From a virus: a DNA stretch of 64,000 nt. Positions 2,022 through 58,658 of this stretch are shown piece by piece. The DNA lies in the IMG/VR virus record IMGVR_UViG_3300000301_000012, positions 1 through 64,000 of that record, one strand, 5' to 3'. The notes beneath the pieces were generated by a model. The model had not been told where the DNA came from and did not search any database. It worked only from the letters and a program-made list of their open reading frames with translations. The translations under genes and the position numbers were made by a program. How positions within the stretch are numbered: position 1 is the stretch's first letter; each line of letters opens with the position of its first letter.

Positions 2022-2840
2022 TTACTTTTTATAATTTTGCCCAATCTCTAAACAATCATATATAAAATTATCCAAAATTTCTCTAGCATATTCACTTCTA
2101 ACCTTCGACTTTTTTAATTCTTTTTCGGTTCCATATTTCTTTAAAAATAACTGATAAAAAGATTCTAATTGCTCCATAAAATAATCTCTAAAAGTTTTGG
2201 CTTTATCCAATTCAACAGGCAAAGTTTTCAATTCTCTAAGAAAATCAATATAATTATTAGTAACTTTTAAAGAATATTCAAAATCATTTGAGCTATAATA
2301 ACGTTTTAAAAAATCATAAAGTCGAATAATGTGAACTAATTGTTTTGGGTCATATCCATATTTCTCAATAGTTTCTTTCTTTCCTTCCGTCGGTTTGCTA
2401 AAAAGTTTAACTTTACTTAGCGCCATTCCCCTAGAAACATTTGCAAGAGTTAAAGGGCTTCTATTAGCAATTTTATCTCTCTTTTTTAAAAGATTAAAAA
2501 CGGGTTCTGTAAATTTAGGATTATACATATAATAAGGAGTATAAAGAATCTCCAAGAAATTAATATTTCCTTTATAAAAAGAATTACATATTAATCTAAT
2601 ATCTTGAATTAGATTAAGTCCGCCACTCTCATTATCTTTCTCTTTTGAAATCTTTTTCTTATCGAGATACAACTCGCGCTTTGTAGGGAGAATAATAGTC
2701 TTTACATCTACATCACTTTGTTCAGTTTCAATTCCATAGTTTTGGGAGCCATAAAGACCCATATAAACAAAAGGATGGCTATCTTTATAAATATCTTTAT
2801 AAAATAAGCCCATCTCATTTAAAATATTTGTAACCTCCAT
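2022..2840 (-). CDS. Pol-beta-fold nucleotidyltransferase, RlaP-like
   Basis: The translation has GSQNYGIETEQSDVDVK, the GS...D.D motif of the predicted-nucleotidyltransferase (RNA-repair-associated RlaP) family. Stop is TAA. This is the first gene of the AT-rich part. Confidence 0.65.
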   Translation of the reverse strand: MEVTNILNEMGLFYKDIYKDSHPFVYMGLYGSQNYGIETEQSDVDVKTIILPTKRELYLDKKKISKEKDNESGGLNLIQDIRLICNSFYKGNINFLEILYTPYYMYNPKFTEPVFNLLKKRDKIANRSPLTLANVSRGMALSKVKLFSKPTEGKKETIEKYGYDPKQLVHIIRLYDFLKRYYSSNDFEYSLKVTNNYIDFLRELKTLPVELDKAKTFRDYFMEQLESFYQLFLKKYGTEKELKKSKVRSEYAREILDNFIYDCLEIGQNYKK

Positions 2841-3870: not shown

Positions 3871-3947
3871 TGGACCAGCAGACGAGATTTGAACTCGCAA
3901 CATCCTACTTGGAAGGCAGGTGCTCTAGCCAACTGAACTACTGCTGG
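3871..3947 (-). tRNA. tRNA-Gly(UCC)
   Basis: Acceptor CCAGCAG/CTGCTGG. Anticodon stem CCTGC/GTAGG with loop CUUCCAA. T-arm GCGAG-TTCAAAT-CTCGT, encoded CCA. Confidence 0.8.
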
Positions 3948-3951
3948 ATAT

Positions 3952-4091
3952 TGGTACTAGCGGGTGGAATCGAACCACCGGCAACAGGTTTTGGTGAGTT
4001 AAAAAGGTCTTGCACCTTCATCTTTTTAAAGGTTTTACTTTTAAACTATTAACCCATAAGACCTGCCCCATCACCACTTGGGTACGCTAGT
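3952..4091 (-). tRNA. interrupted tRNA; becomes a perfect 76-nt tRNA-Ile(UAU)-type cloverleaf if the 64-nt insert is removed
   Basis: Acceptor ACTAGCG/CGCTAGT, D-arm CCCA-AGTGGTGA-TGGG, anticodon stem CAGGT/ACCTG, T-arm GGTGG-TTCGATT-CCACC, then A-CCA. The loop halves CUUAU and AA are separated by 3992-4055. Confidence 0.6.
3992..4055 (-). ncRNA. tRNA-shaped insert lacking an anticodon arm, nested in an anticodon loop
   Basis: Reads GGGTTAA-TA-GTTT-AAAAGTA-AAAC-(12 nt)-GAAGG-TGCAAGA-CCTTT-TTAACTC-A-CCA. It has a 7-bp acceptor stem, D-arm, T-arm, discriminator and CCA. Confidence 0.5.
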
Positions 4092-4099
4092 ATATAGAC

Positions 4100-4159
4100 A
4101 AGACACCTTTGTTTCACAAATTGGCCATTTGTTGCAAGAAAAATTGCTGTTAGTGTCTT
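4100..4159 (-). ncRNA. acceptor-stem-like hairpin spacer with conserved box (family member)
   Basis: Terminal stem AAGACAC/GTGTCTT, then box TAACAGCAATT. Inner hairpins are GCAA-TTTTTC-TTGC and ACAAA-TGGCCAA-TTTGT. Confidence 0.4.
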
Positions 4160-4161
4160 AA

Positions 4162-4236
4162 TGGTTGTGACAGAAAGAATCGAACTTTCATGACGGCGTT
4201 ATCAGCACCGCATACTAACCATTGTATTATGTCACA
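4162..4236 (-). tRNA. tRNA-Ile(GAU)
   Basis: Acceptor TGTGACA/TGTCACA. Anticodon stem CGGTG/CGCCG with loop CUGAUAA. T-arm GAAAG-TTCGATT-CTTTC, A-CCA. Confidence 0.85.
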
Positions 4237-5676: not shown

Positions 5677-5746
5677 CAACAAATAGATGTTTGGGACACA
5701 CACAGTGGAGGGCACGGTCAGATTCGAACTGACGACACGCTGGTTA

Positions 5747-6415
5747 TGGCGTCAACTATGAGATTTGAACTCATATCTTTTCCCATTCTATATCAGAGTA
5801 TTTTTGAATATCTTTTCTCTTTGACGGTAAATTATACTTTTTACACCATTTACGAACAGCATTATCTGAAACTTTAAACATTTTTCCAATTGTAGTAAAC
5901 GGAGTATTTCTTATTAAGGATTTTAATTCTTCTCTACTTATTATATTTTTTTCTCTTAAACATTTCTAACATAACCCTGTTTTATTATTTGCAATTTCTT
6001 TTTTACAAGAAGAACAATAATATTGATGTTTTTTTGGATTTTTTAATTCTTCTGCTATATTTTTGTCATAAATTCTTTTTTGCTCAAGATATTCTTTAGT
6101 ATAAAAACCATCATGAACTTCTCTATGACAATTTGCACATAATAAAATACATTTCTAAATTTCTTGTAAATCTTCTTCCAAATTATGACAAATTCCTTTA
6201 GAAGAAATTCCGTACTCTTTTTCTTCAGGTCTTATATGATGAAATTCTAATGCACTTTTGCTTCTATTATAGCCACAAATATTACATTTATCACCACAAA
6301 CCCTTATTAAATTTTCTTTTCTTCTTCGTCTAAAATCAGAAGTTGCCTAACTACTCATAAATTTCACCATCAAACAATAGAATACAAAGAAAAATATTTC
6401 TTATACTAAGCTGAC
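5747..6415 (-). mobile_element. tRNA-shaped shell carrying an HNH endonuclease gene, nested in an anticodon loop
   Basis: The 5' end reads GTCAGCT-TA-GTAT-AAGAA-ATAT and the 3' end ATGAG-TTCAAAT-CTCAT-AGTTGAC-G-CCA. The acceptor stem has 7 bp including one G-U. The ORF replaces the anticodon arm. None of the ACGG...CCGTGCYAA group I core seen in the other three introns is present. Confidence 0.5.
5771..6358 (-). CDS. HNH homing endonuclease (3 in-frame TAG)
   Basis: ATG at 6358 and TGA at 5773-5771. The translation has CGDKCNICGY...EFHHI...CANCHREVH. TAG falls in the context GLC-TAG-KC. Not in the ORF track because TAG breaks it. Confidence 0.8.
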
Positions 6416-6451
6416 ACAGCCAGCTGCTCTGACCAACTGAGCTACGCACCC

Positions 6452-6977: not shown

Positions 6978-7509
6978 TGGTGGGCCATCTTGGTATCGAA
7001 CCAAGCGAGTCACAATGACAGCGGCTTTTGGAGATAGAATTTAGATTTGAACTAAAAAGTTGCAAGTATTAAATCCTTGGTTATTGGAATTTGGGATAGT
7101 TCTTAAAACTATTCTTGAAAGATTTCCAGATTTACGAATCTCTTCAACGGGAATTACAAAAAGATTCTTCATATCATCAGCACAAAATAATAAATCTACT
7201 GGATGATTTAGTAAATTATCATAAACTTGTCCCTTTGTTCCGCCTTTGTTTACCAATGAAATCTCCTTATTTTTACTAGCTGTAAATTTACATTGTACTG
7301 TTTGAAAAATATCATCTTTTTCTACAACTAAATCATACCATTGTGTATCATTAATTGGTAAACTAACAGTATAACCATTGGAACCAAAATATGCGATAGC
7401 AAGACTTAATCCCGCTCTTCCTTTATCCCTATTATTTAATAATTGCATAACCCTCCTCCATTAGGATTCTACCACAGGCCGCCCCGTCTCCTTAACGGAA
7501 TACTGACCC
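6978..7509 (-). mobile_element. tRNA-shaped shell carrying a PD-(D/E)XK endonuclease gene (free-standing)
   Basis: The 5' end reads GGGTCAG-TA-TTCC-GTTAA-GGAG and the 3' end CTTGG-TTCGATA-CCAAG-ATGGCCC-A-CCA, with 6 of 7 acceptor pairs. The architecture matches 5747-6415. Confidence 0.4.
7041..7448 (-). CDS. PD-(D/E)XK homing-endonuclease-like protein (I-Ssp6803I-like family)
   Basis: 135 aa with GGAGGAGGG before the ATG. The translation KGRAGLSLAIAYFGSNGYTVSLPINDTQWYDLVVEKDDIFQTVQCKF matches the D...(D/E)xK pattern of the small PD-(D/E)XK intron endonucleases. Confidence 0.7.
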   Translation of the reverse strand: MQLLNNRDKGRAGLSLAIAYFGSNGYTVSLPINDTQWYDLVVEKDDIFQTVQCKFTASKNKEISLVNKGGTKGQVYDNLLNHPVDLLFCADDMKNLFVIPVEEIRKSGNLSRIVLRTIPNSNNQGFNTCNFLVQI

Positions 7510-7672: not shown

Positions 7673-7906
7673 ATAGAAATAGGAGTGACCGCCCTCCTAT
7701 TGGGTCTGTTGTTCCACTCCTATCGGTAGTTTTTAAATGGTGTTACCGACACCGATTTGCGTCAGGAGGAGTATCCTCCCCAATGGAATTTGTTGATACA
7801 ATCATAGAACCATCTCCTTCCAATAAACGCTTTTTAAGACTTAGCGTGGTACGCATTATTAAGAGGCGTGCTAAGTTCATTTCTACAAGAGGAACTTCCC
7901 ACTTGG
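7673..7906 (-). ncRNA. unassigned structured spacer immediately 3' of the suppressor tRNA
   Basis: No credible ORF. Hairpins are AGGAG-TGACCGCC-CTCCT, GGAGGA-GTA-TCCTCC, CGGTA...TACCG and CTTAGC...GCTAAG enclosing GCGT-GGT-ACGC. Confidence 0.35.
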
Positions 7907-7982
7907 TGGCAGCGGTTCTCAGAATCGAACTGAGTCCATCGCTTTTAGAGAGCGAGGCGCTAAACCGTTACGCTAAACCGCA
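7907..7982 (-). tRNA. amber suppressor tRNA(CUA), Gln-like identity features
   Basis: Anticodon stem TCGCT/AGCGA with loop CUCUAAA; the anticodon is complementary to plus-strand tag at 7946-7948. D-arm GCGT-AACGGTTTA-GCGC and T-arm CTCAG-TTCGATT-CTGAG. Acceptor TGCGGTT/AACCGCT has a U1-U72 mismatch, G2-C71 and discriminator G. CCA is followed by a second CCA. Confidence 0.85.
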
Positions 7983-8097: not shown

Positions 8098-8162
8098 AAG
8101 GCACATAAGTAACAATAATTTCTCACCCAAGAAAAGCTGTTATTAATTGCTGTTTGCGCCTT
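8098..8162 (-). ncRNA. acceptor-stem-like hairpin spacer with conserved box (family member)
   Basis: Terminal stem AAGGCGCA/TGTGCCTT (one G-U pair), followed by the box AACAGCAATT. Confidence 0.35.
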
Positions 8163-8341: not shown

Positions 8342-8415
8342 TGGCAGAAAACGTCGGTGCTGCCCCGCTATTCCACCTCCCAAAGATGGCGTGTTACTGT
8401 TACACTACGTTCTCT
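8342..8415 (-). tRNA. tRNA-Pro(UGG)
   Basis: Acceptor (A)GAGAAC(G)/(C)GTTTTC(T). Anticodon stem CCATC/GGTGG with loop UUUGGGA. The T-arm is weak and non-canonical (loop GGCAGCA). It abuts tRNA-Ala. Confidence 0.7.
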
Positions 8416-8491: not shown

Positions 8492-8640
8492 ACGTTTAGC
8501 GGCCGTTGCCATCCGCCATTCGTATCCTCTTATGCAGCAACGAACCGAGGAATTATAGGTTTTTATTTGTAAGCTACCTACAAACTTACTGGTAGGAGTG
8601 GCGGGACTCGAACCCGCACGACCACAAGCCAGCTGATTTT

Positions 8641-9387
8641 CATACTACTCTATGTCACCATAGCCGCATTACTGCGTTGTAGTCTGGACTATGTCTTCAC
8701 CATATCTCTCAACTTAGGTGGTTGGTATATAGTCTCTACACATTTATTTGGTGCAGTTCTTTCCACGATAGGAATCTGTTAAAGCGTGACAATTTGGACA
8801 TAATAATTCATAATTTTCTATACTATTATTATGTCTATTGCCATCTTTATGATGTAACTCTAATGGAATTGGATTGCCAAGCCATTCGGTTAAACCGCAA
8901 TGTTCACACTTATGTTCTTTATACCCTTCTTCTAACAACTTTATTCTAACTTTGTTTGATTGAATATCTTTGCTATTTTCAAGATATTGAACTAATGTCA
9001 TTTTTTCTTTAACTTTAGAATAACCTTTTCCACTTTGATTTCCATCATACTTTAAGCCTAATCTCTCTAATACGCTATTAATAGTTTTAGGATTACATCC
9101 TAATTCTCTTGCCATATAAGCTTTAGATCTGTTCTCAGAAATCCATCGTTCAATTTCTGCCTTACGCTCTAAAATATCTGTTCTCATAAGTATCACTCCT
9201 TTTTTTTCTTTCTACTTATAAGTAGAAAAGGAACACACTTATTACAGAATTTTGATGCGTAATCCAAAATTTAGCACGGCGTTCTGTGTTTGCCTTCGCC
9301 GTTTAGCCAACTTCTACTTTCACAATTTCTTGTGAAGCACTCTCTATCCAAAAGATAGCACTTCTTTTTAGGAAGTGAAACACATTA
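8641..9387 (-). mobile_element. group I intron with HNH homing-endonuclease ORF
   Basis: The 5' splice site follows U and the 3' splice site follows G. The core element GGCTAAACGGCG...ACGCCGTGCTAAATT resembles the P4-P6/P7 region of phage group I introns such as T4 td. The insertion site is the classical tRNA-Leu(UAA) position. Confidence 0.7.
8744..9187 (-). CDS. HNH homing endonuclease (intron-encoded)
   Basis: The translation has CEHCGL...LELHHKDGNRHNNSIENYELLCPNCHA. AGGAGTG lies 6 nt before the ATG at 9187. Stop is TAA. Confidence 0.85.
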   Translation of the reverse strand: MRTDILERKAEIERWISENRSKAYMARELGCNPKTINSVLERLGLKYDGNQSGKGYSKVKEKMTLVQYLENSKDIQSNKVRIKLLEEGYKEHKCEHCGLTEWLGNPIPLELHHKDGNRHNNSIENYELLCPNCHALTDSYRGKNCTK

Positions 9388-9587
9388 AAGTCAGCAGCGT
9401 ATACCGATTTCGCCACACTCCCATAGCGTCCCTCTCGTTTCATAGCTCATTGAGCCGATTTTGCAGGCTTGGGACTGCCGATGGCACGATTAACGCTAAA
9501 TGCCGAACTGAGAGAGTGAAAGGAAAGGAAAAATCTCTCTCATTCAACATTAATATTATATCAAAATTTTTAGTTTATTTCAAATTT

Positions 9588-10654: not shown

Positions 10655-12130
10655 TTAAACTTTACCAATCCAAACGCAATCATACATAGGATTATTAAGA
10701 GTTTCAATCATAACATCCCAACCAGTCTTACCGTTCAACGCAGCAGTCAGTTCTTTAAAAGAAGAAGGAGAACCGCCACTTACATGGATAAGATCAGGAC
10801 TATTACCCAAGAAAGTATTGCTACGAGCGTAAACATTCCAAAGAACTAGCTTAGGAAGATTAAAACCGTATTTAGCAAATTTCTTCCTCTGAATTTCTAC
10901 GAAATCATCATTAATATTATCTCTTTGAGAAATCCAGTCAATTTCCATATCAGAAATAACGATAATAGCTTTAGGCATTTCATCGTTAGGAATCTTATAG
11001 TCAATACCAGTTCTCAATACTAAATTGAAAGCTTCATTTAAATCAGTATTATATCCAAAATCCGTCCCTTCGGCCTTTACTATTTTTTGATAAATGTCGT
11101 CACTCTCTTTAAGAGTAATAAAATGAGGATTATCAGTAAAAGTCATGTAAAGATTATGGAAATAACCTTTATTTCTTTCAGCAAAATAAACTGCCAAACT
11201 AGTAGACATTGCCATAGGACGTCCAGACATAGAACCAGATACATCAGCCATAACAATATAGTTATTTTCACCTTCGACATAATTAGGAAGTCCATTCCAC
11301 TGAGCCTGGAGTAAATCTCTAGCTTGCATATTACAGCTACTAATTCTATCTGATTTTTCCTTAAGGTCGTAAGGATAAAGGACAGAACTATTGACTTTAG
11401 ATTCGCCAGTCTTTAAACCTGCAACATATTCATTAAATCTATCTTCATCATGTCTACGGAAAGCATCGGAATAATTCTTCATAGCATAAGAAGGAACATT
11501 ATCATAAATAATTTCATCCCAATTATTCGCAGACATATCTCTCTCAACAATTCGAATAGCATGACGCAACCTAGACAGAGCTTTACGATAAGTTCTGCTA
11601 GTCATACCCAACTCACCAATGGCGCGCCGTGCAAGATGAATAGTCTCAGGAGAAGAAGCATTTTCAGAAGGCATCCACTTACCCAGAAGACTTACAGAAT
11701 TGCCCTTAGCGCAATTAACTAGATCTTCTTTAAAGGTTTCCTTAATCAAATCCCACATTACCTTCTCGCATTTTGTTCCAGTAAGAACAAAAAGAGAATC
11801 CCAACGATTAAAATGGGGAATCAACTTAATATTATTCTCTACATATTTAGGCGCAATATTTGCCAAAGTTTTTAGACAAATACGGAAAGTTCTGCGCTCA
11901 CCTAAACCGCCACGAATGTTACCGGCATAAAATAACATCTTAGTAGTCAATTCAGGATTTTCTCTAAAAGAATTTGTAAACATTTCACTAATGTCTTTCA
12001 CACTTCGACTTCTCAAAGCACCGATGACACCAAAAAGAGATAAAACATTACTATCCAAACAGGAATAAGCGTTCATTCCATTTTCAGTAAACTTATCGGT
12101 AGTATTCTTAGCGGCTTGTGCAAAATTCAT
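10655..12130 (-). CDS. DUF2828-type protein with C-terminal vWA domain (Ro60/TROVE-like architecture)
   Basis: 491 aa. The N-terminal region reads TENGMNAY...LFYAGNIRGGLGERRTFR. The C-terminal vWA domain has the MIDAS motif DVSGSMSG. The TROVE-plus-vWA order matches Ro60. Confidence 0.75.
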   Translation of the reverse strand: MNFAQAAKNTTDKFTENGMNAYSCLDSNVLSLFGVIGALRSRSVKDISEMFTNSFRENPELTTKMLFYAGNIRGGLGERRTFRICLKTLANIAPKYVENNIKLIPHFNRWDSLFVLTGTKCEKVMWDLIKETFKEDLVNCAKGNSVSLLGKWMPSENASSPETIHLARRAIGELGMTSRTYRKALSRLRHAIRIVERDMSANNWDEIIYDNVPSYAMKNYSDAFRRHDEDRFNEYVAGLKTGESKVNSSVLYPYDLKEKSDRISSCNMQARDLLQAQWNGLPNYVEGENNYIVMADVSGSMSGRPMAMSTSLAVYFAERNKGYFHNLYMTFTDNPHFITLKESDDIYQKIVKAEGTDFGYNTDLNEAFNLVLRTGIDYKIPNDEMPKAIIVISDMEIDWISQRDNINDDFVEIQRKKFAKYGFNLPKLVLWNVYARSNTFLGNSPDLIHVSGGSPSSFKELTAALNGKTGWDVMIETLNNPMYDCVWIGKV

Positions 12131-12166: not shown

Positions 12167-12277
12167 AGACGCAATAGCTCCAAAGAAGGGACTCGAACCC
12201 TTAAATACTGAATTTAACGTTCAGAGCTTTTTCCTTTTAAGCTACTTCGGAAATCTCTCGCTTCGCTGTTCGCGTCT
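12167..12277 (-). ncRNA. stem-enclosed tRNA-like RNA directly upstream of the Ro60-like gene
   Basis: Basal pairing AGACGC (12277-12272 complement) with GCGTCT (12172-12167 complement). The box-like GAACAGCG follows the 5' arm. It encloses the cloverleaf at 12178-12251. Confidence 0.45.
12178..12251 (-). tRNA. tRNA-like cloverleaf with UUA in the anticodon position and G33 (probably not a decoding tRNA)
   Basis: Acceptor TCCGAAG/CTTTGGA and D-arm GCTT-AAAAGGAAA-AAGC. Anticodon stem CTGAA/TTCAG with loop CGUUAAA. T-arm AAGGG-TTCGAGT-CCCTT, no CCA. Confidence 0.5.
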
Positions 12278-14972: not shown

Positions 14973-16079
14973 ATGGAAAATTTAGTTATTGATAATATCG
15001 ACTTTAACGAATTAGAGAGTGAGAAATACTGGAGCTTTCCAAAATCTTATAAGGGCGATGCTAAACATGACACAAAAATGATGATTTTCTCTGGTGATTA
15101 TCTTGGCGCTAGAAAAATGGATGGTGCCTATTATCGTTTCACTAAATCTCTGGATGGAGAAATGAAACTCCAGGGTCGTTCTCGGAGTGTAAGTGGCGAT
15201 TTTCTTAATAAGATTGGTCATGTTCCTCAGCTTATGAACTTTTTTAATGCGCTGCCGCCTGGTACGTGTTTGCTCGGGGAGCTATATTTTCCTCAAAAAG
15301 AAGGTTCTCAAAATGTAACTACCATTATGGGTTGTAAAGAAGATAAGGCTATTGACCGCCAAGAGAAAGGTATGAAACTTCATTATTATATTTTTGATAT
15401 TTGGGCTTGGAATGGACTATCTTTCCTTACAAAGCGCGCGGTCGATAGATTCAATTATCTTATGAATAGGGCGTATGCTTATCAAAGTGAATATGTTGAA
15501 TATGCGAAATATTCTAGTGGAGAAAAACTTTGGGAAAATCTTCAAACTATTTTAGCTAATAACGGTGAAGGAATCGTTATGACAAAGAAAGATTCAATTC
15601 CTCAACCTGGTAAGCGCACAGCTCGAAAGACTTTAAAAGTCAAGAAGGAATTGGAGCAGAGCATTGATTGTTTCTTTACTGGTAAAGCCACCCCTCCTAC
15701 TAAGGAATATACTGGTAAGGAAATTGGTACATGGAAGTATTGGATTGATGAAGTCACTGGAGAGCGACTTGAAGAAGGAGAACATTATAGAGATTATAGT
15801 ATGGGAAAAACTATTATTCCAGTAACTAAACCTTATTATTATAATTGGGCGGGAAGTTTAGAGATTGGAATTTTAAAGGATAACAAAGTTTTTCCGATTG
15901 GTTTTATTAGTGGCGTTTCGGATGAAATTAAGAAGAATTATAAGGATTATTCGATGCGGCCGATTGAAGTTACAGCTATGGAAGTACATCCGACAGGAGG
16001 CTTACGCCATGCAAAATTTATTGGCTTTCGAGATGATTTAACTCTACAAGATTGTACTTATAATAAAATTTTTGGATAA
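14973..16079 (+). CDS. ATP-dependent polynucleotide ligase (DNA ligase most likely; RNA ligase not excluded)
   Basis: Nucleotidyltransferase motifs are present: K-x-D-G (ARKMDGAY), GELYF, EGIVMTKK and LKVKK. Confidence 0.8.
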   Translation: MENLVIDNIDFNELESEKYWSFPKSYKGDAKHDTKMMIFSGDYLGARKMDGAYYRFTKSLDGEMKLQGRSRSVSGDFLNKIGHVPQLMNFFNALPPGTCLLGELYFPQKEGSQNVTTIMGCKEDKAIDRQEKGMKLHYYIFDIWAWNGLSFLTKRAVDRFNYLMNRAYAYQSEYVEYAKYSSGEKLWENLQTILANNGEGIVMTKKDSIPQPGKRTARKTLKVKKELEQSIDCFFTGKATPPTKEYTGKEIGTWKYWIDEVTGERLEEGEHYRDYSMGKTIIPVTKPYYYNWAGSLEIGILKDNKVFPIGFISGVSDEIKKNYKDYSMRPIEVTAMEVHPTGGLRHAKFIGFRDDLTLQDCTYNKIFG

Positions 16080-23341: not shown

Positions 23342-23713
23342 ATGGTGAAAAAAATGAGTGGTTATGAAATGCACATAATTCAAATACTACAAAAAGAAAA
23401 AATTAACTTTATAAGAGAGAAAACCTTTCAAGACTTAAAAAATGGAGCTTTACGTTTTGACTTTTATCTTTATGAAAAAAATATTATAATAGAAGTAGAT
23501 GGAGAATACCATTTTAAACCCATCAGAGGGCGCCAGAAATTTTTACTTCAAACAGAATATGATAGAAAGAAAAATAGTTATTGTTTAGCGAACAATATAT
23601 CTTTATATAGAATTCCTTATTGGGAACTAAAAAATATAAAAAATTTTTCAGATATCTTAAATAATAAATTTTTAGTAAAAACTCGCTGGCATAATGACAA
23701 ATTAGTGAAATAA
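23342..23713 (+). CDS. PD-(D/E)XK-fold endonuclease-like protein (DUF559/Vsr-like)
   Basis: The 123-aa translation has FDFYLYEKNIIIEVDGEYHF. Confidence 0.55.
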   Translation: MVKKMSGYEMHIIQILQKEKINFIREKTFQDLKNGALRFDFYLYEKNIIIEVDGEYHFKPIRGRQKFLLQTEYDRKKNSYCLANNISLYRIPYWELKNIKNFSDILNNKFLVKTRWHNDKLVK

Positions 23714-25496: not shown

Positions 25497-26963
25497 GTGA
25501 GTTATAATGCTGATTCAATAAAAATTAAAGATTTTGCTACAGCGTGTAGAGATACTCCATCTATGTATTTAGGTGATGATAGACAGAACGGAATTTTTAA
25601 TGCGTTTCTTGAAATTCTTAATAATGCTTGTGATGAAGCTATTATGAAACGAGGAAATGTCATTACTGTTGATATGGAAGATGATTGTTTACAAATTGAA
25701 GATAGGGGTCGTGGAGTACCTCATGGAGAGAATGCTGACTGTAAGGAAGTTCTAATTGAACTTTTTACCAAAAGCCATTCTAGTGGTAAATTTGATACAA
25801 ATAACTATAAAAAAGTTCGAGGACTTCATGGCGTTGGTTCTAGCGCTGTTTGTGTTTGTTCTAAGACTTTTGAAGTATGGACAAAACGAGATGGATATAC
25901 TTGGTATTTAAAATTTAATGATGGTATTCCTGAAACGGAAGTTGCTCAACAAGGCGCGCCGACCAATGAGACTGGAACCATTATTAAGTTTTCTCCTAAT
26001 AAAAAAGTCTTCCATCTTAATGAAGATGAAAAATGTTTTGATTACAATAGAATAAGAGAAGAATTAGAATTAACTTCATATTTTATTCCTAATGTTACTT
26101 TTGTATTAAAATATAATGGAAGAACCGAAAGGTTCCTTTCTAAAAACGGATTAAAAGACTTTGCTAAAAGTAGAATTAAAAACCCTCTTCATAAGAATTT
26201 TATTTATGGATATAAAGAATTTGATGATGAAGTTGAAGTTGAGGTTTTTGCACAGTGGACCGCTGGAAAAGAAGAGTCTTACGTCTTTTCTAATGGCGCC
26301 TTAAATGCAGAAGGCGGTACTCCAATAACTGGTGCGAAAACCGCTTTTACGAGAACTATTAACTCTTTGTCCAAGGGTGAGTTTGACGCTGATATGATTA
26401 GAAAGGGATTAGTGTATATTATTAATATTCATCATCCCCATCCTATCTATCAGAATCAGATTAAAAATAAAATTCAAAATCCAGAACTTAGAGGATATAC
26501 CCAAACTGTTTTTAGTGAAGCAATTAAAGATTTTGTTTATAAGAATAAAAATGAATTTGAAAAGATTGTTGAAGTTTTAACTAAAGAAAAGAAAGCAGAA
26601 GCTGCGGCAGAACGAGCTAGACGTCAGGTTCTTGAGGCCACTAAGGATATTGAAAAAAATCAGAGAAAGAAAGTTTTTTCTTCTGATAAGTTAAAGGATG
26701 CAGAATTTTTAGGAGAAGACTCTACACTTTTAATTGTAGAGGGTAATTCTGCGGCAGCTTCAATGGCGGTAGCGAGAGATATTAAGAAATATGGTATTCT
26801 TGGTATTAGAGGCAAACTTTTAAATTGTCTTGCCCATCCAGAAGAAAAGATTTTTCAGAACGAAGAAATTAAACTTCTTCTTAGCGCAATGAATATTAAT
26901 CCAGGAAAGTATGATAGTAAAAAACTTAGATATGGAAAAATCGCAATTTGTGTTGATGCGGAT
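25497..26963 (+). CDS. type II topoisomerase ATPase subunit (GyrB/ParE-like), exon 1
   Basis: GTG start after AAAGGAGGA. The GHKL ATPase and Toprim regions are present (LIVEGNSAA). The exon ends within KIAICVDAD, just before the DG of the conserved DxDxDG motif. Confidence 0.85.
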
Positions 26964-28048
26964 AGAACTTAAAGAACTGTCCAAAAATGCTTTACTCTTA
27001 ACCAAGAGGGTCTACATATAAATGTAAGGATGGATTACATATAAATGTAGGCTAACGGTATCAGTGAAATAAGACTTCTCATTGAAACTATAAAGAGATA
27101 ATGGGATATATCCAAAGACGAATAAGCTGACTAAGAAACCCTAAACCTGAAATATGGTGAGATAAAGGGAATACCGTGGGAATCAGAATTAATCCATTCC
27201 TTCTTATTAAAAAGGAGGAATTAAAATGATAGGTATTTATAAAATAACCAAAAAAGAAAATGGCAAATCTTATATAGGACAATCTAACAATATAGAACGA
27301 AGATTTAAAGAACATCGACATAAGACAGATATTCCTATTGAATTAGCAATTCAAAAATATGGAGTAGATGCTTTTGAATACAAAATAATTGAGGAATGTT
27401 CTTTAGATGAGTTAGATGAAAAAGAAAAGTATTGGATAGCATATTATAATACATATAAAGGTTTCGGTTATAATTGTAATGAAGGCGGTGGAAATAACAG
27501 ATGTGAAAATAACGGAAGAACTAAATTAACTAATGAAGAAGTTAGTTATATTAGAGAATGTTATGATTTACATATGCGCCGACGTGAAGTATATAAAAAG
27601 TTTAAAGATAAAATTTCTTTTGGTGCTTTTGCTAGTATTTGGGATGGCTCTACTTGGAAAGAAATTAAGCCAGAAGTATATACCGAAGATAATAAGAAAT
27701 ATTATATGTATGAAGCTACCAATGGCGGAAAATCAGAAAGCGCTTGTTTAACAGATGAAGAAGTTATGAAATGTAGAACACGCTATATGAAAGAAACCGC
27801 AAAACAAATATATGAAGATTATAAAGAAAAAATAACTTATCAAGCTTTTCAAGCTATGTTATGGGGAAGAAGCTATAAAAATTTACCCATATATAGCAAA
27901 AAGAAAAAGGAATGGATTAATAAATGAAGCCTGTAACGACTATCTCCGTGAAGGAGAGTACAATTACTATTGGTACGTGATTGGAAAGAGCATTCTCATT
28001 TAATGAGTAAAATATAGTCTAAGCCATTTGAAAAAATGGAACATCTTG
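26964..28048 (+). mobile_element. group I intron with GIY-YIG ORF in the topoisomerase gene
   Basis: The 5' splice site follows U (gat|a) and the 3' splice site follows G (cttg|agt). Splicing restores in-frame ...VDAD-SDGYHIG.... Core elements are GCTAACGGTAT...ATACCGTGGGAA and TGTAACGACTATC, both shared with the dnaE intron. Confidence 0.7.
27226..27927 (+). CDS. GIY-YIG homing endonuclease
   Basis: The translation begins MIGIYKITKKENGKSYIGQSNNIERRFKEH. AAGGAGGA lies before the ATG. Confidence 0.85.
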   Translation: MIGIYKITKKENGKSYIGQSNNIERRFKEHRHKTDIPIELAIQKYGVDAFEYKIIEECSLDELDEKEKYWIAYYNTYKGFGYNCNEGGGNNRCENNGRTKLTNEEVSYIRECYDLHMRRREVYKKFKDKISFGAFASIWDGSTWKEIKPEVYTEDNKKYYMYEATNGGKSESACLTDEEVMKCRTRYMKETAKQIYEDYKEKITYQAFQAMLWGRSYKNLPIYSKKKKEWINK

Positions 28049-28432
28049 AGTGATGGTTATCATATTGGACTTTTAATTATGGCTGCACTTCGCTATTTGG
28101 CTCCAAAATTTTTAGAAGAAGGTAGACTATGCTGGCTTCGTTCTCCGCTTTATATTGTAAAAAATGGGAAATTAGAAAGTTATTATTTTTCAGATGAAGA
28201 ATTTGAACGGGCTAGAGGAAAAAGAGGCGCGACTGTAACACGAGCAAAAGGTTTGGGTGCATTATCAGAAGAACAAGCGAGAAATTCTATGTTTGGAGAA
28301 AGTCAAAGAATGGATATCATTGAACCTACTCCAGAAGCTATTGCGCTGCTTGAAGATTTAATGGGGGTAGATGTTGAACCGAGAAGAGAATTTATCTTTG
28401 AAAATGTTGATTTTTCGGAGGTTAAAGAGTAA
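28049..28432 (+). CDS. type II topoisomerase ATPase subunit, exon 2
   Basis: The translation SDGYHIGLLIMAALRYLAP...LYIV...KGLG continues the GyrB/ParE C-terminal region, in frame with exon 1. Confidence 0.8.
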   Translation, partial: SDGYHIGLLIMAALRYLAPKFLEEGRLCWLRSPLYIVKNGKLESYYFSDEEFERARGKRGATVTRAKGLGALSEEQARNSMFGESQRMDIIEPTPEAIALLEDLMGVDVEPRREFIFENVDFSEVKE

Positions 28433-39590: not shown

Positions 39591-40936
39591 ATGACAAATC
39601 AGTATCCTGGTAGTTTACATAACCATACTGATTATTCTTAGTTCTAACTTTCGTTTGCGCGATTCAATAAATACGGTTGAATCTTTGGTTAATCGAGCAA
39701 TAGAACTTGGTCATAATGTTTTGGCAATAACCGAACATGAAACAATTAGTTCTGCCATTAAAGCAGAGAAAGTTTATAATAAAGTAAAAAAAGACCATCC
39801 TGATTTTAAATTAATTTTGGGTAATGAGATTTATCTCTGTAGAAATGGATTAAACGCTCAAAATTTTAATAGAGAAAATGACAGATATTATCACTTCATT
39901 CTTTTAGCTAAAGATGCTATTGGACATGAACAAATTAGAGAGATTTCTACCAGAGCTTGGAGCCACTCTTACATGGCGCGCGGTATGATGCGCGTTCCAA
40001 CTTATTATCAAGATTTATATGAAGTTATTGGCAGAAACCCTGGACATGTAATTGGAAGTACAGCTTGCTTAGGTGGCGCTCTACCTACTCAACTTTTAAA
40101 ATATAGAAAAAATCATAGTAAAGATTTATATAAAAAGATTTGTCTTTGGTGTAGACAGTTGAAAGATTTATTTAGAGAAGGTAATTTTTATTTAGAAATG
40201 CAACCCTCTCGAAATGAAGAACAAATTTATGTAAATAAAAATTTAATTAAGCTTTCAGAAGAATTAGATATTCCTTATATTATTACAAACGATTCTCATT
40301 ATCTTAAAAAAGAGGATATTAATATTCATCATGCTTTTCTTAATGCTCAAGGCGGCGACAGAGAAACGGAAAGTTTTTATGCTACTACTTATTTAATGAG
40401 TACAGAAGAAATTTATGAATATATGGAGCAAACTCTAGGGGAAGAGGTTCTTCAAAAAGCTTTTAATAATATTCTTAAAATTAAAGAAAAATGTGAAGAC
40501 TATTCTTTAATGCACCCATTGAGAATTCCATATTTACCCAAACATCCTTCAGAGCCAAATGAAGATTATTATAATGAGTTTGTTAAAGATATTCCTATAA
40601 TGGAATCTTTTAAAAATTCTGAGTATGATAGTGATAGACATTTGTTAAGTGTAGTTTTAAATAAAATAAAAAAAGATTCTCAGTATCAAAATAAGAGAGC
40701 TTATGATGAAATAAATATTTGCTTAAAAAGTGTTTGGGATTCTTCTGAGGCTTCTCGCACAAGATGGTCTGCATATTTAATGAATGTTAGAGATTATATC
40801 GAGATTGCTTGGGAGGACGGAGATACTCTTATTGGTCCTTCTCGTGGGTCTGGCGGTGGATTTATTTTATTAAATATTTTAGGTATTACACAAATTAACC
40901 CACTAAGAGAAAAAACTAAGTTATTTCCTTGGAGGT
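39591..40936 (+). CDS. dnaE: DNA polymerase III alpha (DnaE-type), exon 1, with a frame break near codon 17
   Basis: ATG at 39591 gives MTNQYPGSLHNHTDYS, the PHP HxH motif. That frame then hits TAG (39639) and TAA (39645). The body (NFRLRDSINTVE...AITEHE...) runs in the +1 frame, open from 39595, and ends at the intron. Confidence 0.75.
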
Positions 40937-41863
40937 TAGCTAATGTGGCATAAGCCTCCTCTCTATGGTGACATAGTTAAAATAAACGCTGTGAACGCCT
41001 TTAGCAAGCGGTGTCCGAAAGGGCTAACGGGGAAAATCTTATAAAAATAAAGACAATCCCGTGCCAAGTTACTTTATCATTGGAGAGCCAATAATAAAGT
41101 AAAAGGTGTAACGACTATCCGAAAGGAGTAGGGTGGATTTGCTACCACTCGAAGCGCAGCGGCTCTCATAATATTTAAAGTAGGTGATATTATGGGATAT
41201 ATTTATAAAATTCAAAATAAAATAAATGATAAAATTTATATTGGACAAACAGTAGCTAGTCCACAAAGAAGATGGACTTAGCATAAAAACAATATAAAAA
41301 GAGATTACTTATAGCATATAGCTTTATACAAAGCTATGAATAAATATGGTATCGAAAATTTTACTTTTGAAGTTTTAGAAGAAGTTTCAAATAATTTGCT
41401 CGATGAACGAGAAAAATATTGGATAAAAAATTTTAATAGCTATGGTAAAAATGGTTATAATATGACTCTAGGTGGAAGATGTACTAAACTTTATAATTGG
41501 GATGAACTTGAAATAATTGAGTTATACTATAAAGAGAAATCTGCTAGAAAAGTTGCAAAAATAATTGGATGCGACCATAGTACTGTTGATAAAATTTTAA
41601 ATGCAAATAATATTCCTAGATTTTCTATTGCATAGCAAATTAGTAAAAGAATAGTCCTAGAAAAAGATGATAAATATTTATTTGAAACGACTTCTGATGC
41701 TGCTAAATGGCTAATAGAAACTGGAAAAACAAGAAGTAAAAATTTTCATAGCATAAGATAGCAAATTTCAGAAAAAGCAAGAGTAAATGGAATTTATTTT
41801 GGATTTAAAGTATATTATGAGAGTAAGATATAGTCTACCCCACTAGAAATAGTGGATAAGGTG
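40937..41863 (+). mobile_element. group I intron with GIY-YIG ORF in dnaE
   Basis: The 5' splice site follows U (aggt|t) and the 3' splice site follows G (ggtg|tt). Splicing gives ...LFPWR-F-MNPERVSPLDIDID..., the conserved RF(L/M)NPER motif. The core GCTAACGGGGAA...GACAATCCCGTGCCAAGTT is close to the T4 td intron core. TGTAACGACTATCC is shared with the topoisomerase intron. Confidence 0.75.
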
Positions 41864-41869
41864 TTATGA
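41192..41869 (+). CDS. GIY-YIG homing endonuclease (5 in-frame TAG)
   Basis: The translation reads MGYIYKIQNKINDKIYIGQT...RRWT-TAG-HKNN. Track ORF 41336-41635 is in the same frame. The first non-TAG stop is TGA at 41867. Confidence 0.75.
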
Positions 41870-49840: not shown

Positions 49841-50684
49841 TAATATTAAAAATATTAACGAAAATCAACAGAATGCTATTGATACATTTGCCCAAATTCT
49901 GGCGCTTCCCGATGAAGAATTTAAAACTTTCTCCCAGCTTTTTCTTGATACTCTTGAAAAAGAATTGACCGACCCCAAGAATATTTCTACTATACAAATT
50001 ATTTTTAAAAATTCTGGGATAGATGTTGAAAATTTTGTAGATAGCGCTGATGATTTATGTGAATCTCTTAAAGAAAAATATGGTAAAGATTTAGGAGAAG
50101 ATAGAATTGATTTCCTTGTAAAGATGGTTATTCTATTTAAAAACGCAGTTCGCGCGAATGGTAATCTTGGAAAGAAAATTGTAATGATTCAAGTAGAAAA
50201 ATGTTCGGAAGATACAAAAATTCCCACCTACGCGAGAGTTGGTGATGCTGGAATGGATATTTACTCTACAGAAGAAGTTACTTTGGCGCCAGGTGAGAAG
50301 AAATTAATTGGAACAGGTATTAAAGTTGCTATTCCTGAAGGATATGAAATTGAAGTAGTTCCTAAAAGTGGTATCGCATTAAGAACTGGTTTAAAAGTTT
50401 CTAATAGTCCTGGTACTATTGATAGTGGATATAGAGATGAAATTAAAGTAATTGTTGAAAACTCAGAGCCTTCAATTAAGGATATTGAATATACTTTTGA
50501 TGATAATAGAAATCCTGTAATTAAAAGCATCCTTCATGGAAAATCTTATACTATTGAAAAAGGTCAAAAAATTGCACAGATTATTCTAAAAGAAGTTCCT
50601 ATGATTAACTTCCAAGAAGTTAAAAATATTAGTGAAATTTCGGGCGACCGAGGTGGAGGCTTTGGCTCAACTGGGCTTAAGTAA
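49824..50684 (+). CDS. dut: dUTPase with N-terminal extension
   Basis: The translation has ARVGDAGMDIYS, GTIDSGYRDEI and C-terminal RGGGFGSTG motifs. Confidence 0.85.
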   Translation: MIMGIDNIKNINENQQNAIDTFAQILALPDEEFKTFSQLFLDTLEKELTDPKNISTIQIIFKNSGIDVENFVDSADDLCESLKEKYGKDLGEDRIDFLVKMVILFKNAVRANGNLGKKIVMIQVEKCSEDTKIPTYARVGDAGMDIYSTEEVTLAPGEKKLIGTGIKVAIPEGYEIEVVPKSGIALRTGLKVSNSPGTIDSGYRDEIKVIVENSEPSIKDIEYTFDDNRNPVIKSILHGKSYTIEKGQKIAQIILKEVPMINFQEVKNISEISGDRGGGFGSTGLK

Positions 50685-50686
50685 AA

Positions 50687-51421: not shown

Positions 51422-51425
51422 AATG

Positions 51426-51460
51426 AAAAAGAGTGGATAGATATTCTATCCACTCTTTTA
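51426..51460. terminator. bidirectional terminator at the convergence of early and late modules
   Basis: Stem GAGTGGATAG/CTATCCACTC with a 5-nt loop, flanked by an A-run and a T-run. Confidence 0.7.
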
Positions 51461-51461
51461 T

Positions 51462-51749: not shown

Positions 51750-51762
51750 CTTATTTTCTCCA

Positions 51763-52179: not shown

Positions 52180-52223
52180 TTTACATCACTCCTATGATAC
52201 GGATTTGTACTCTTTAAGAGTGA

Positions 52224-52901: not shown

Positions 52902-52934
52902 TTTACAGGCCTCCTATTTTATTTATTTCTTCGT

Positions 52935-58645: not shown

Positions 58646-58658
58646 TTAATCACTCCTT

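What the first reader, a model, noticed from the sequence alone, without database searches (positions are those of the whole stretch)
3952..4091. tRNA-shaped 64-nt insert nested inside the anticodon loop of a tRNA
The outer molecule has a perfect acceptor stem, D-arm, anticodon stem and T-arm, but its anticodon loop is split (CUUAU ... AA) by 64 nt. The insert itself has a 7-bp acceptor stem (GGGTTAA/TTAACTC), a D-arm, a T-arm, discriminator A and a terminal CCA. It has no anticodon arm. Removing it exactly from G1 to CCA leaves a canonical 7-nt loop CUUAUAA (UAU, an AUA-reading Ile type, with A73). It is far too short for a group I intron, and bacteria and phages are not known to have other tRNA intron types. 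RNase P and 3'-end processing acting on the inner element would release tRNA halves carrying 3'-OH and 5'-phosphate ends. Those are substrates for an ATP-dependent ligase such as the one at 14973-16079.
Basis: partly seen in the sequence, partly recalled or inferred. Interest (0 to 1): 0.9.

Follow-up and report, generated by a model that had tools for sequence, protein, structure and literature searches.

The report
tRNA-shaped intron inside phage tRNA gene
A phage isoleucine tRNA gene is split in its anticodon loop by a 64-base insert that is itself tRNA-shaped, and it belongs to a recurring, apparently undescribed family of mobile inserts in phage tRNA genes that look built for removal by the cell's own tRNA-trimming enzymes.

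Summary
On the minus strand, 4091..3952 is a tRNA-Ile(UAU) gene. A 64-nt insert (4055..3992) sits between nt 36 and 37 and runs exactly from G1 to CCA.

- Related phages carry the same tRNA uninterrupted. Five independent assemblies carry the insert.
- The insert and exons are far more conserved than synonymous sites, and the only changes keep base pairs.
- The same window holds two larger inserts of the same design. tRNA-Asn(GUU) has a 669-nt insert with an HNH endonuclease gene. tRNA-Tyr(GUA) has a 445-nt insert with a PD-(D/E)XK endonuclease gene.
- Other phages have further cases, including a 58-nt ORF-less insert in tRNA-Lys and a whole tRNA-Phe inside tRNA-Arg.
- Every case has U(-1)|G1, a 7-bp acceptor stem, a T arm and NCCA. 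Removing the insert restores a canonical 7-nt loop.
- The insert is not a group I intron, a BHB intron or any ribozyme in Rfam.

Best reading: this is the ORF-less member of a mobile, tRNA-shaped intron class. It would be cut out by RNase P and a cleavage just after CCA, and an RNA ligase would then join the exons. Splicing is inferred, not shown.

No RNA ligase was found in the window.

The parts
4056..4091 (-). 5' exon of tRNA-Ile(UAU): acceptor 5' strand, D arm, anticodon stem 5' strand, loop nt 32-36 (CUUAU)
   Evidence: Sequence. 97-100% identical to the first 36 nt of the uninterrupted orthologs L010:7022-7097 and L012:1527-1602.
3992..4055 (-). 64-nt tRNA-shaped insert without an ORF: G1, 7-bp acceptor stem, D arm, 12-nt linker in place of the anticodon arm, T arm, A73, CCA
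   Evidence: Rfam tRNA 40.9 bits. Absent from the L010/L012/L018 orthologs. Differs at 0-1 of 64 positions in four other assemblies.
3952..3991 (-). 3' exon of tRNA-Ile(UAU): A37 A38, anticodon stem 3' strand, variable loop, T arm, acceptor 3' strand, A73, CCA
   Evidence: The spliced construct is called tRNA-Ile(tat) by ARAGORN.
5706..6451 (-). Sibling element: tRNA-Asn(GUU) (exons 6451..6416 and 5746..5706) split after nt 35 by a 669-nt tRNA-shaped insert (6415..5747). The insert starts GTCAGCT-TA-GTAT and ends ATGAG-TTCAAAT-CTCAT-AGTTGAC-G-CCA. It carries an HNH ORF (6358..5771, with in-frame TAG codons).
   Evidence: Sequence; HNH by Pfam; spliced construct called tRNA-Asn. The uninterrupted ortholog L025:7113-7189 differs at 1 nt. 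The L013/L014 and L108 alleles show compensatory changes.
6978..7509 (-). Sibling element: tRNA-Tyr(GUA) (exons 7509..7474 and 7028..6978) split after nt 35 by a 445-nt tRNA-shaped insert (7473..7029). The insert starts GGTAGAA and ends TTTAG-TTCAAAT-CTAAA-TTCTATC-T-CCA. It carries a PD-(D/E)XK endonuclease ORF (7448..7041). Only 37 nt are non-coding.
   Evidence: Sequence; PDDEXK_5 at 5e-13; spliced construct called tRNA-Tyr. The uninterrupted ortholog L025:7935-8021 differs by a compensatory C28-G42 / U28-A42 pair and one variable-arm base.
2022..2840 (-). RlaP-family nucleotidyltransferase (tRNA/RNA repair), directly downstream of the tRNA array. Context only; not shown to act on the element.
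   Evidence: PF10127 at 4e-6 and phrog_388. Biochemistry described in bioRxiv 10.64898/2025.12.29.696909.
14973..16079 (+). It belongs to the ATP-dependent DNA ligase family and is probably not part of the system.
   Evidence: PF01068, phrog_114 and PDB 4d05. Not hit by the phage RNA ligase profile.

Best explanation
The 64-nt insert is the ORF-less ('miniature') member of a class of mobile, tRNA-shaped introns that sit in the anticodon loops of phage tRNA genes. Each member starts at a G that follows a loop U. Its two ends pair into a 7-bp acceptor stem stacked on a canonical T arm, and it ends with a discriminator base plus CCA. In RNA terms the insert therefore looks like a pre-tRNA whose 5' leader is the 5' exon and whose 3' trailer is the 3' exon.

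Proposed pathway (inferred, not shown):
1. RNase P cuts 5' of G1. This leaves a 3'-OH on the 5' exon.
2. An endonuclease of the tRNA 3'-end pathway, or a phage enzyme, cuts immediately after CCA. This leaves a 5'-phosphate on the 3' exon.
3. The two exons stay held together by the outer acceptor and anticodon stems, as a tRNA nicked in its anticodon loop. This is the substrate of phage tRNA-repair ligases, which would seal it to give tRNA-Ile(UAU).
4. The released piece is a 64-nt anticodon-less mini-tRNA. In the larger siblings it is the endonuclease mRNA.

The larger siblings spread at the DNA level through their homing endonucleases. The ORF-less form may be a deletion derivative. It may persist because it is harmless if spliced, and possibly because it disrupts an endonuclease target site.
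For: Shown:
- The insert spans exactly G1..CCA relative to uninterrupted orthologs. Its removal gives the loop CUUAUAA.
- Close relatives differ in presence or absence of the insert. L019 carries the insert on an L012-type background, in both the T stem and RlaP.
- The element is under constraint. Third-codon-position divergence between the window and other insert-bearing genomes is 7-14%. The insert shows 0, 0 and 1 change in 64 nt and the exons 0-2 in 76 nt. All changes preserve pairs: inner U5-A68 to U.G, and outer G50-C64 to A-U.
- The same architecture appears twice more in this window, with HNH and PD-(D/E)XK genes inside. The Tyr insert has only 37 non-coding nt, which leaves no room for a ribozyme.
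- Further members occur in other phages. These are Asn with HNH (L013/L014, L108), Lys with HNH (L032/33), a 58-nt ORF-less insert in Lys (L126), and a full tRNA-Phe ending in CCA inside tRNA-Arg(UCU) (L088).
- All spliced constructs are called as tRNAs. A scan of reversed sequences gave 0 validated hits from 21,981 raw candidates.
- Across nine elements, 108 of 108 acceptor and T-stem cells pair, and 10 of 12 pairs show changes on both sides. G1-C72, G53, U54, C56, A58, C61 and CCA are invariant.
- Three Asn-intron alleles whose HNH proteins are 52-77% identical show compensatory changes in the inner stems.
- U(-1)/G(+1) holds at every 5' junction. Twelve of the 15 ordinary tRNAs in the array also have the leader UAU|+1.

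Context:
- RlaP lies next to the array.
- Relatives encode a kinase-HD end-healing enzyme.
- The phages with the Phe-in-Arg and Lys-HNH cases encode an RNA ligase (PF09414-like) near RlaP.
Against: - There is no RNA evidence of any kind.
- No RNA ligase was found in the 64-kb window or in the loci held for close relatives.
- The enzyme that would cut exactly after CCA is unidentified. In many Firmicutes an encoded CCA inhibits RNase Z (from memory).
- Intact exons in the endonuclease-bearing siblings could simply reflect recent homing into functional alleles.
- The exon variants seen in insert-bearing alleles also exist in uninterrupted alleles. Recombination, rather than post-insertion selection, could therefore explain them.
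- The covariation count is partly circular, because some members were found by a scan that required pairing.
Confidence: 0.55

Rival explanations
1. Selfish insertion without exon ligation. The tRNA-like ends serve only to cut the insert out of the tRNA operon transcript with RNase P and 3' trimming. That release yields the endonuclease mRNA in the large forms, or a mini-tRNA-like RNA in the small ones. The interrupted tRNA is sacrificed and the host supplies that tRNA.
For: Homing endonuclease genes can spread even when costly. No RNA ligase was found in this phage. AUA makes up only 77 of 6001 codons in 12 confident ORFs, so tRNA-Ile(UAU) may be dispensable. Exon intactness can be explained by recent homing.
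Against: It does not explain why every insert has no extra nucleotide before G1 or after CCA, so that a canonical 7-nt loop is always restored. It does not explain why ORF-less 64-nt and 58-nt forms, which have no drive of their own, persist with intact exons across 7-14% synonymous divergence. This phage would have lost Ile(UAU), Asn and Tyr at once, yet relatives always keep these tRNAs.
Confidence: 0.22
2. Fossil of RNA repair. A mature tRNA-like RNA with a 5'-P and a CCA-3'OH was ligated by a repair ligase between the halves of a nuclease-cut tRNA. The chimera was then copied back into DNA. On this view the exact G1..CCA borders record an RNA-level accident, not a splicing signal.
For: Mature-tRNA borders are seen at three different loop positions: 34|35, 35|36 and 36|37. 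A complete tRNA-Phe with CCA sits inside tRNA-Arg in L088. These phages carry tRNA repair genes. In L019 the tRNA-Ile(GAU) ortholog lacks its anticodon arm, as if trimmed and rejoined.
Against: No reverse transcriptase was found in the window. No free-standing copy of the 64-nt RNA gene was found. The endonuclease-bearing members, and the conservation of the element, point to a maintained design. This scenario concerns origin and does not exclude present-day splicing.
Confidence: 0.12
3. The 140-nt RNA works unspliced as a composite tRNA-like RNA. It could be a decoy for anticodon nucleases, or a partner of the DUF2828/vWA RNA-binding protein at 10655-12130, in the way Y RNAs partner with Ro.
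For: The DUF2828 protein (phrog_850, 'RNA-binding protein') lies in the same tRNA region. In L009, tRNA-like genes with long inserts lie directly upstream of its homolog.
Against: The Rfam YrlA match is only 19.6 bits against a gathering score of 69, and it lies over neighbouring tRNA arms. The L009 inserts are a different type, a hairpin plus an ACAGCAA motif. The endonuclease-bearing siblings show that the shared feature is the insert's tRNA-like ends, not a composite fold. The insert is optional among near-identical phages.
Confidence: 0.06
4. Decaying pseudogene or assembly artefact.
For: Default tRNA finders do not call the gene.
Against: The gene appears in five independent assemblies. 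Conservation is well below the synonymous rate, and only pair-preserving changes are seen.
Confidence: 0.03

Closest known systems
Group I introns in bacterial and phage tRNA anticodon loops, some with homing endonuclease genes (e.g. tRNA-Leu(UAA); tRNA-fMet with the PD-(D/E)XK enzyme I-Ssp6803I; from memory)
   Same: Located in the anticodon loop. Presence/absence polymorphism among relatives. Associated with HNH and PD-(D/E)XK homing endonucleases. ORF-less derivatives exist. The same window has a group-I-like case: tRNA-Leu(UAA) split after U34 by 747 nt ending in G.
   Different: There is no ribozyme. The insert is 64 nt, and the Tyr sibling has only 37 non-coding nt. There is no Rfam Intron_gpI hit. 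The ends form a tRNA acceptor/T minihelix with CCA instead of P1-P10 pairings and a terminal G.
Archaeal/eukaryal protein-spliced tRNA introns (bulge-helix-bulge motif, EndA/Sen endonuclease, RtcB or Trl1 ligase)
   Same: A short intron without a ribozyme in the anticodon loop. It would be removed by protein or RNP enzymes and the exons sealed by an RNA ligase. Some archaeal examples carry homing endonuclease genes (from memory).
   Different: There is no BHB geometry: 5-nt and 6-nt single strands flank a 7-bp helix. The positions are 34|35 to 36|37 rather than 37|38. No EndA-family protein appeared in the Pfam scans. The predicted ends are 3'-OH/5'-P rather than 2',3'-cyclic-P/5'-OH.
tRNA-like processing signals: plant mitochondrial t-elements (PMC1920247), MALAT1 mascRNA, mitochondrial tRNA punctuation
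   Same: A tRNA-like fold embedded in a longer transcript directs RNase P and the 3' tRNase to cut at its borders and release flanking RNAs.
   Different: Those elements lie between or at the ends of RNAs, and the flanks are never rejoined. Here the element is nested inside another tRNA's anticodon loop with nucleotide-exact borders, which implies rejoining.
Phage tRNA repair: T4 PrrC damage healed by Pnkp and sealed by Rnl1; RlaP-associated repair modules (bioRxiv 10.64898/2025.12.29.696909)
   Same: The predicted intermediate is a tRNA nicked in its anticodon loop and held together by its own stems. RlaP, kinase-HD and RNA ligase genes accompany the tRNA arrays of these phage groups.
   Different: Repair answers damage from host nucleases. 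Here the break would be programmed by the gene's own structure.
Engineered tRNA scaffolds and natural tRNA mimics (YrlA)
   Same: A foreign RNA is carried in the anticodon arm of a tRNA body.
   Different: The cargo here is itself tRNA-ended and optional. The YrlA model does not match (19.6 bits against a gathering score of 69).

Membership tests
Group I intron | Ribozyme core (P3-P9) of roughly 200 nt or more, detectable by Rfam RF00028 | tested here: not met
   The insert is 64 nt. No Intron_gpI match at the gathering threshold or up to E = 10 around the locus.
Group I intron | 5' splice site after a U, and a terminal G at the intron's 3' end | tested here: not met
   U36 does precede the insert, but the insert ends in CCA, not G.
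BHB (archaeal/eukaryal) tRNA intron | Two 3-nt bulges separated by a 4-bp helix at the splice sites | tested here: not met
   The junctions are a 5-nt strand (CUUAU) and a 6-nt strand (ACCA+AA) on either side of a 7-bp helix.
BHB (archaeal/eukaryal) tRNA intron | A splicing endonuclease of the EndA/Sen family is available | tested here: inconclusive
   None appeared among the window ORFs scanned with Pfam. The host genome is unknown.
tRNA (Rfam RF00005), for the insert | Cloverleaf scoring above the gathering score | tested here: met
   40.9 bits against 29. My own phage tRNA model gives 28.3 bits, E = 3e-7.
tRNA (decoding), for the insert | An anticodon arm | tested here: not met
   Only a 12-nt linker lies between the D and T arms. 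The insert is tRNA-like, not a decoder.
tRNA-Ile(UAU), for the outer gene | Orthology to an uninterrupted tRNA in the syntenic slot, and a canonical cloverleaf once the insert is removed | tested here: met
   Synteny Thr-Ile(GAU)-Ile(UAU)-Gly. The L010 ortholog scores 68.2 bits. ARAGORN calls the spliced construct.
Mobile (homing-endonuclease-associated) intron | Presence/absence at an identical site among close relatives | tested here: met
Mobile (homing-endonuclease-associated) intron | An endonuclease ORF inside the element | tested here: not met
   The 64-nt insert has none. The siblings do: HNH at 5771-6358 and PD-(D/E)XK at 7041-7448.
Mobile (homing-endonuclease-associated) intron | RNA-level removal that restores the host gene | not testable with these tools
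   Requires RNA-seq or northern blots of infected cells.
RNase P substrate (pre-tRNA or minihelix) | Acceptor stem stacked on a T arm, a 3' NCCA, and preferably U(-1)/G(+1) | tested here: met
   Present in the insert and in all siblings: 108 of 108 stem cells paired, and G1-C72, the T-loop positions U54, C56 and A58, and CCA invariant. Cleavage itself was not tested.
YrlA / Y RNA | Match to Rfam RF02553 | tested here: not met
   19.6 bits against a gathering score of 69, located over neighbouring tRNA arms.
Small self-cleaving ribozymes (hammerhead, twister, HDV-like and others) | Match to an Rfam model | tested here: not met
   No such match up to E = 10 in 3900-4150.

The most novel reading that the evidence does not exclude
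Phages carry a previously unrecognised class of introns in tRNA genes that mimic a pre-tRNA. The tRNA-maturation machinery would excise them: RNase P at the 5' junction and a cut right after CCA at the 3' junction. A tRNA-repair-type RNA ligase would then join the exons. The class moves by means of HNH and PD-(D/E)XK homing endonucleases encoded where the anticodon arm would be. It also exists as 58-64-nt ORF-less miniatures, and as nested pairs of functional tRNAs. If so, this would be the first enzyme-dependent, ribozyme-free tRNA splicing pathway in the bacterial world.
Probability: 0.5. Interest if true: 0.95.

Novelty: categorically new. Interest (0 to 1): 0.9.

Why it matters
If the inserts are spliced, bacteria-infecting viruses have a third way of removing tRNA introns, alongside self-splicing group I introns and the archaeal/eukaryal BHB pathway. 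RNase P and RNA ligases would act as splicing enzymes.

This would give phage tRNA-repair modules (RlaP, kinase-HD, RNA ligase) a routine job beyond countering host anticodon nucleases. It would also explain how homing endonuclease genes can colonise tRNA genes without carrying a ribozyme.

Even if the inserts are not spliced, two things remain:
- The class is a blind spot in annotation. Default tRNA finding missed four tRNA genes in this window.
- It is a natural design for releasing RNAs from tRNA operons.

The idea is directly testable with small-RNA sequencing and three purified enzymes.

Tried and rejected
- An exact 18-mer across the 3' junction hit only coding sequences by chance in IMG/VR (L001-L008).
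- A 25-mer from the insert's 5' half gave nothing in IMG/VR. A 28-mer from its 3' half gave nothing in GTDB genomes and one contig in the metagenome collection (L025).
- Megablast of the tRNA region against GenBank phages gave no match. The nearest annotated phages are SPbeta-like, at 41% identity in the DNA polymerase.
- The RlaP protein used alone found no IMG/VR relatives. An alignment was needed.
- I hunted for an RNA ligase in the window with Pfam and PHROGs on standard and TAG-readthrough ORFs. I also used a profile of 42 phage RNA ligases on six-frame translations. Nothing was found.
- Looking up the window's own leftmost proteins to walk beyond the window failed.
- ARAGORN intron mode produced many false 'introns' that are really two adjacent tRNAs (L026-L028, L036, L049).
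- The Y-RNA/Ro idea, prompted by DUF2828 and L009, was set aside. The L009-type inserts are a different kind.
- The proposed L025 nested Leu has a poor outer cloverleaf, so I did not count it. L122 (50 nt) is doubtful.
- Searching with my tRNA model with filters off gave uninformative alignments for the ACAGCAA-type inserts.
- Seven literature searches found no description of tRNA-shaped introns.
Full report
**Setting.** The window is part of a low-GC (~30%) tailed phage. It encodes a split PolIII-alpha-type DNA polymerase, topoisomerase II, a helicase and primase, and NrdD. It is distantly SPbeta-like, at 41% identity in the polymerase. Its late genes read TAG as sense.

A tRNA array lies on the minus strand between 3335 and 12251. 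Default ARAGORN tRNAs there and Rfam. The array is bordered by an RlaP nucleotidyltransferase gene (2022-2840) and a DUF2828/vWA 'RNA-binding protein' gene (10655-12130). RlaP is a family shown to add nucleotides to damaged tRNA ends (bioRxiv 10.64898/2025.12.29.696909).

**Observation.**
- The outer molecule has a 7-bp acceptor stem, D arm, 5-bp anticodon stem, T arm, A73 and an encoded CCA.
- Its anticodon loop is CUUAU ... AA, separated by 64 nt.
- The 64 nt have G1, a 7-bp acceptor stem (one G.U), a D arm, a 12-nt linker where the anticodon arm should be, a T arm, A73 and CCA.
- The Rfam tRNA model scores the insert alone at 40.9 bits, with a gathering score of 29.
- The minimum-free-energy fold of the 140 nt keeps the outer acceptor, T and anticodon stems and the inner acceptor stem.
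- ARAGORN finds the gene only when introns are allowed.

**Orthologs.** I fetched relatives through RlaP homologs and found the same array order: Thr(UGU), Ile(GAU), Ile(UAU), Gly(UCC).
- In L010, L012 and L018 the Ile(UAU) gene is an ordinary 76-nt tRNA.
- Alignment shows that the window differs from these by one uniquely placed 64-nt gap, exactly G1..CCA between nt 36 and 37.
- The 140-nt form is present in L019, L022, L023 and L025, which come from different samples.
- A third set of relatives (L013-17, L020) has a non-orthologous 90-nt tRNA-Ile(UAU) in the same slot.
- So the insert is real, optional and precisely bounded.

**Constraint.** Third-codon-position divergence between the window and the other insert-bearing genomes is 7-14% in RlaP and the neighbouring ORF.
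- The insert shows 0, 0 and 1 difference in 64 nt, and the exons 0-2 in 76 nt.
- By my own arithmetic, such low counts have probabilities of about 0.008, 7e-5 and 0.01 at those rates. The genomes are not independent, so these figures are only indicative.
- The single insert change turns U5-A68 into U.G.
- The exon change is a double G50-C64 to A-U change.
- L019 combines the insert with an L012-type T stem and an L012-type RlaP. The insert has therefore crossed genetic backgrounds.
- This rules out a decaying pseudogene. It does not by itself distinguish selection from recent transfer.

**The same design elsewhere in the window.** While checking weak tRNA-model hits I found that tRNA-Asn(GUU) is also split.
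- Its exons are 6451..6416 and 5746..5706. They surround a 669-nt insert that begins GTCAGCT-TA-GTAT and ends ATGAG-TTCAAAT-CTCAT-AGTTGAC-G-CCA.
- An HNH endonuclease ORF lies in between.
- The junction is CUGU|...|UAA, after nt 35.

tRNA-Tyr(GUA) is split in the same way.
- Its exons are 7509..7474 and 7028..6978, again split after nt 35.
- The 445-nt insert begins GGTAGAA and ends TTTAG-TTCAAAT-CTAAA-TTCTATC-T-CCA.
- It carries a PD-(D/E)XK endonuclease ORF. Only 37 nt are non-coding.

In both cases the ORF's stop codon lies in the T stem.

L025 shares the 64-nt Ile insert but has uninterrupted Asn and Tyr genes. These differ from the window's exons by one G.U-preserving base, and by a compensatory C28-G42/U28-A42 pair plus one variable-arm base, respectively. 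Each insert therefore comes and goes independently among close relatives, as mobile introns do.

**Other phages.** I ran a structural scan of 1.9 Mb of fetched phage loci. It required a 7-bp acceptor stem, a T arm, CC[A/C], a flanking 5-bp stem and a 7-nt residual loop, and hits were validated by ARAGORN on the spliced construct. It recovered all of the above plus the following:

| Locus | Host tRNA | Insert | Position |
|---|---|---|---|
| L013/L014 | Asn | 675 nt, HNH | after nt 35 |
| L108 | Asn | 616 nt, HNH | after nt 35 |
| L032/L033 | Lys(UUU) | 586 nt, HNH | after nt 36 |
| L126 | Lys(UUU) | 58 nt, no ORF, no anticodon arm | after nt 35 |
| L088 | Arg(UCU) | complete 76-nt tRNA-Phe(GAA) ending in CCA | after nt 34 |

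- The same pipeline on reversed sequences validated none of 21,981 raw candidates.
- Across nine elements, all 108 acceptor and T-stem cells pair, and 10 of 12 pairs show changes on both sides. G1-C72, G53, U54, C56, A58, C61 and CCA never vary. This count is partly circular, because some members were found by a scan that required pairing.
- The three Asn-intron alleles, whose HNH proteins are 52-77% identical, give independent compensatory changes: C6-G67 to U-A, C3-G70 to U-A, and one T-stem G-C to A-U.
- Every 5' junction is U|G.

**What it is not.**
- It is not a group I intron. It is too small, has no Rfam match and has no terminal G.
- The window does contain one group-I-like case for contrast. 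tRNA-Leu(UAA) is split after U34 by 747 nt that end in G and carry an HNH ORF. It is not tRNA-shaped, and Rfam does not recognise it either.
- It is not a BHB intron. The junction geometry is wrong, and no EndA-family protein appeared in the scans.
- It matches no small ribozyme or Y RNA model.

**Mechanism (inferred).** The features shared by all members are those of a bacterial RNase P substrate: an acceptor/T minihelix, NCCA, and U(-1)/G(+1). Twelve of the 15 ordinary tRNAs in this array also have the leader UAU|+1, and in the Ile case the anticodon UAU supplies that same leader.
- RNase P cleavage would free the 5' exon with a 3'-OH.
- The inserts never carry a nucleotide beyond CCA, so the second cut must fall right after CCA. 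From memory, some RNase Z/BN enzymes cut there, while others are inhibited by CCA. This step is the weakest link.
- The result would be a tRNA nicked in its anticodon loop with 3'-OH/5'-P ends, which is the substrate of Rnl-type ligases.
- The L088 phage (Phe-in-Arg) encodes RlaP, a kinase-HD end-healing enzyme and a PF09414-like RNA ligase (25.9 bits, just below the gathering score of 27). A close homolog of that ligase lies near RlaP in the L032 phage (Lys-HNH) and in about 45 of the 80 IMG/VR loci fetched with RlaP.
- In the window's own clade I found RlaP, and in L010 a kinase-HD protein and a metallophosphoesterase. I found no RNA ligase in the DNA held.
- The gene at 14973-16079 belongs to the DNA ligase family.

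**Rivals.**
- The inserts may be processed out without rejoining the exons. That would be selfish release of an endonuclease mRNA at the cost of the tRNA. This fits the missing ligase. It does not explain the nucleotide-exact borders or the persistence of ORF-less miniatures with intact exons.
- The exact mature-tRNA borders could record an RNA-level origin: a repair ligase inserting a mature tRNA into a cut loop, followed by copying into DNA. The L088 case, and an anticodon-arm-less Ile(GAU) ortholog in L019, hint at this. I found no reverse transcriptase, and this scenario is compatible with present-day splicing.
- An unspliced composite function, or an artefact, is unlikely.

**Novelty.** Seven full-text searches found no description of tRNA-shaped or nested-tRNA introns in phages or bacteria. 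The library lacks most subscription journals, so prior description cannot be excluded.

**Verdict.** The finding is the smallest member of a recurrent, structurally constrained and partly endonuclease-bearing class of tRNA-shaped insertions in phage tRNA anticodon loops. Splicing by tRNA-processing enzymes plus an RNA ligase is the best-supported explanation, at about 0.55, but it is untested. The specific ligase assignment is not supported.

Noticed in passing
window 8590-9422 (minus strand): tRNA-Leu(UAA) (exons 9422..9388 and 8640..8590) is split after U34 by a 747-nt insert (9387..8641). The insert ends in G and carries an HNH ORF (8744-9196). This is the classical group I position, but Rfam gives no Intron_gpI hit, and the insert is not tRNA-shaped. 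A 77%-identical HNH gene occurs in the distant phages L030 and L088.
   Followed up: partly
window 50681-63998; suppressor tRNA(CUA) at 7907-7982 and tRNA(UUA) at 12177-12251: Late and structural genes form long ORFs (1182 and 1779 aa) only if TAG is read as sense. The phage therefore recodes TAG and carries the matching suppressor tRNA. The intron-encoded HNH ORF also contains in-frame TAG codons.
   Followed up: partly
window 4092-4161 (minus strand); also 8144-8154; L009:5650-6010; L047:5449-5699; L068:140-375; L081:5101-6269: A conserved hairpin carrying the motif (U/A)ACAGCAA(U/A)UU lies between tRNA-Ile(GAU) and the nested gene. Its stems are kept and its loops vary among relatives. The same motif, placed after a hairpin, forms 40-55-nt inserts in runs of otherwise high-scoring tRNA genes in other RlaP/DUF2828 phages. 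This is a second, different kind of tRNA insert of unknown function.
   Followed up: partly
L019:28-90 (ortholog of window 4162-4236): In L019 the tRNA-Ile(GAU) ortholog lacks about 13 nt, so its anticodon arm is replaced by 'ACA'. This gives a ~62-nt armless tRNA-like gene with the same architecture as the 64-nt insert.
   Followed up: no
L025:6452-6630 (minus strand): A complete tRNA-Leu(UAG) ending in CCA sits inside a tRNA-like shell: acceptor AGGCAAA/TTTGCCT, D arm, T arm and CCA. After removal the shell does not give a canonical anticodon loop. In the window the same slot holds a plain tRNA-Leu(UAG).
   Followed up: partly
L022/L023:1900-2500: tRNA-Thr(UGU) is split in its anticodon loop by an insert with a different PD-(D/E)XK gene. 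The insert's ends pair (TTTTTGA/TCAAAAA), but it has no clear T arm or CCA. It may be a degenerate or distinct variant.
   Followed up: no
window 7839-7875 (minus strand): An Rfam abiF RNA match of 36.8 bits, just under the gathering score of 37, lies inside the tRNA array. It may be an RNA related to an abortive-infection system.
   Followed up: no
window 25497-28432 and 39655-44517: The GyrB-like topoisomerase gene is interrupted by a GIY-YIG endonuclease gene (27226-27927). The PolIII-alpha gene is split, with a TAG-containing GIY-YIG ORF (41051-41869) between the halves. A further HNH gene lies at 23342-23713. The genome is unusually rich in homing endonucleases.
   Followed up: no
window 8346-8414 (minus strand) and 1-1700: A degenerate tRNA-Pro(UGG)-like gene with a weak T arm (Rfam 29.6 bits) lies next to tRNA-Ala. 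Separately, the first ~1.7 kb of the window has 47% GC against ~30% elsewhere, and it differs from the syntenic region of relatives.
   Followed up: no
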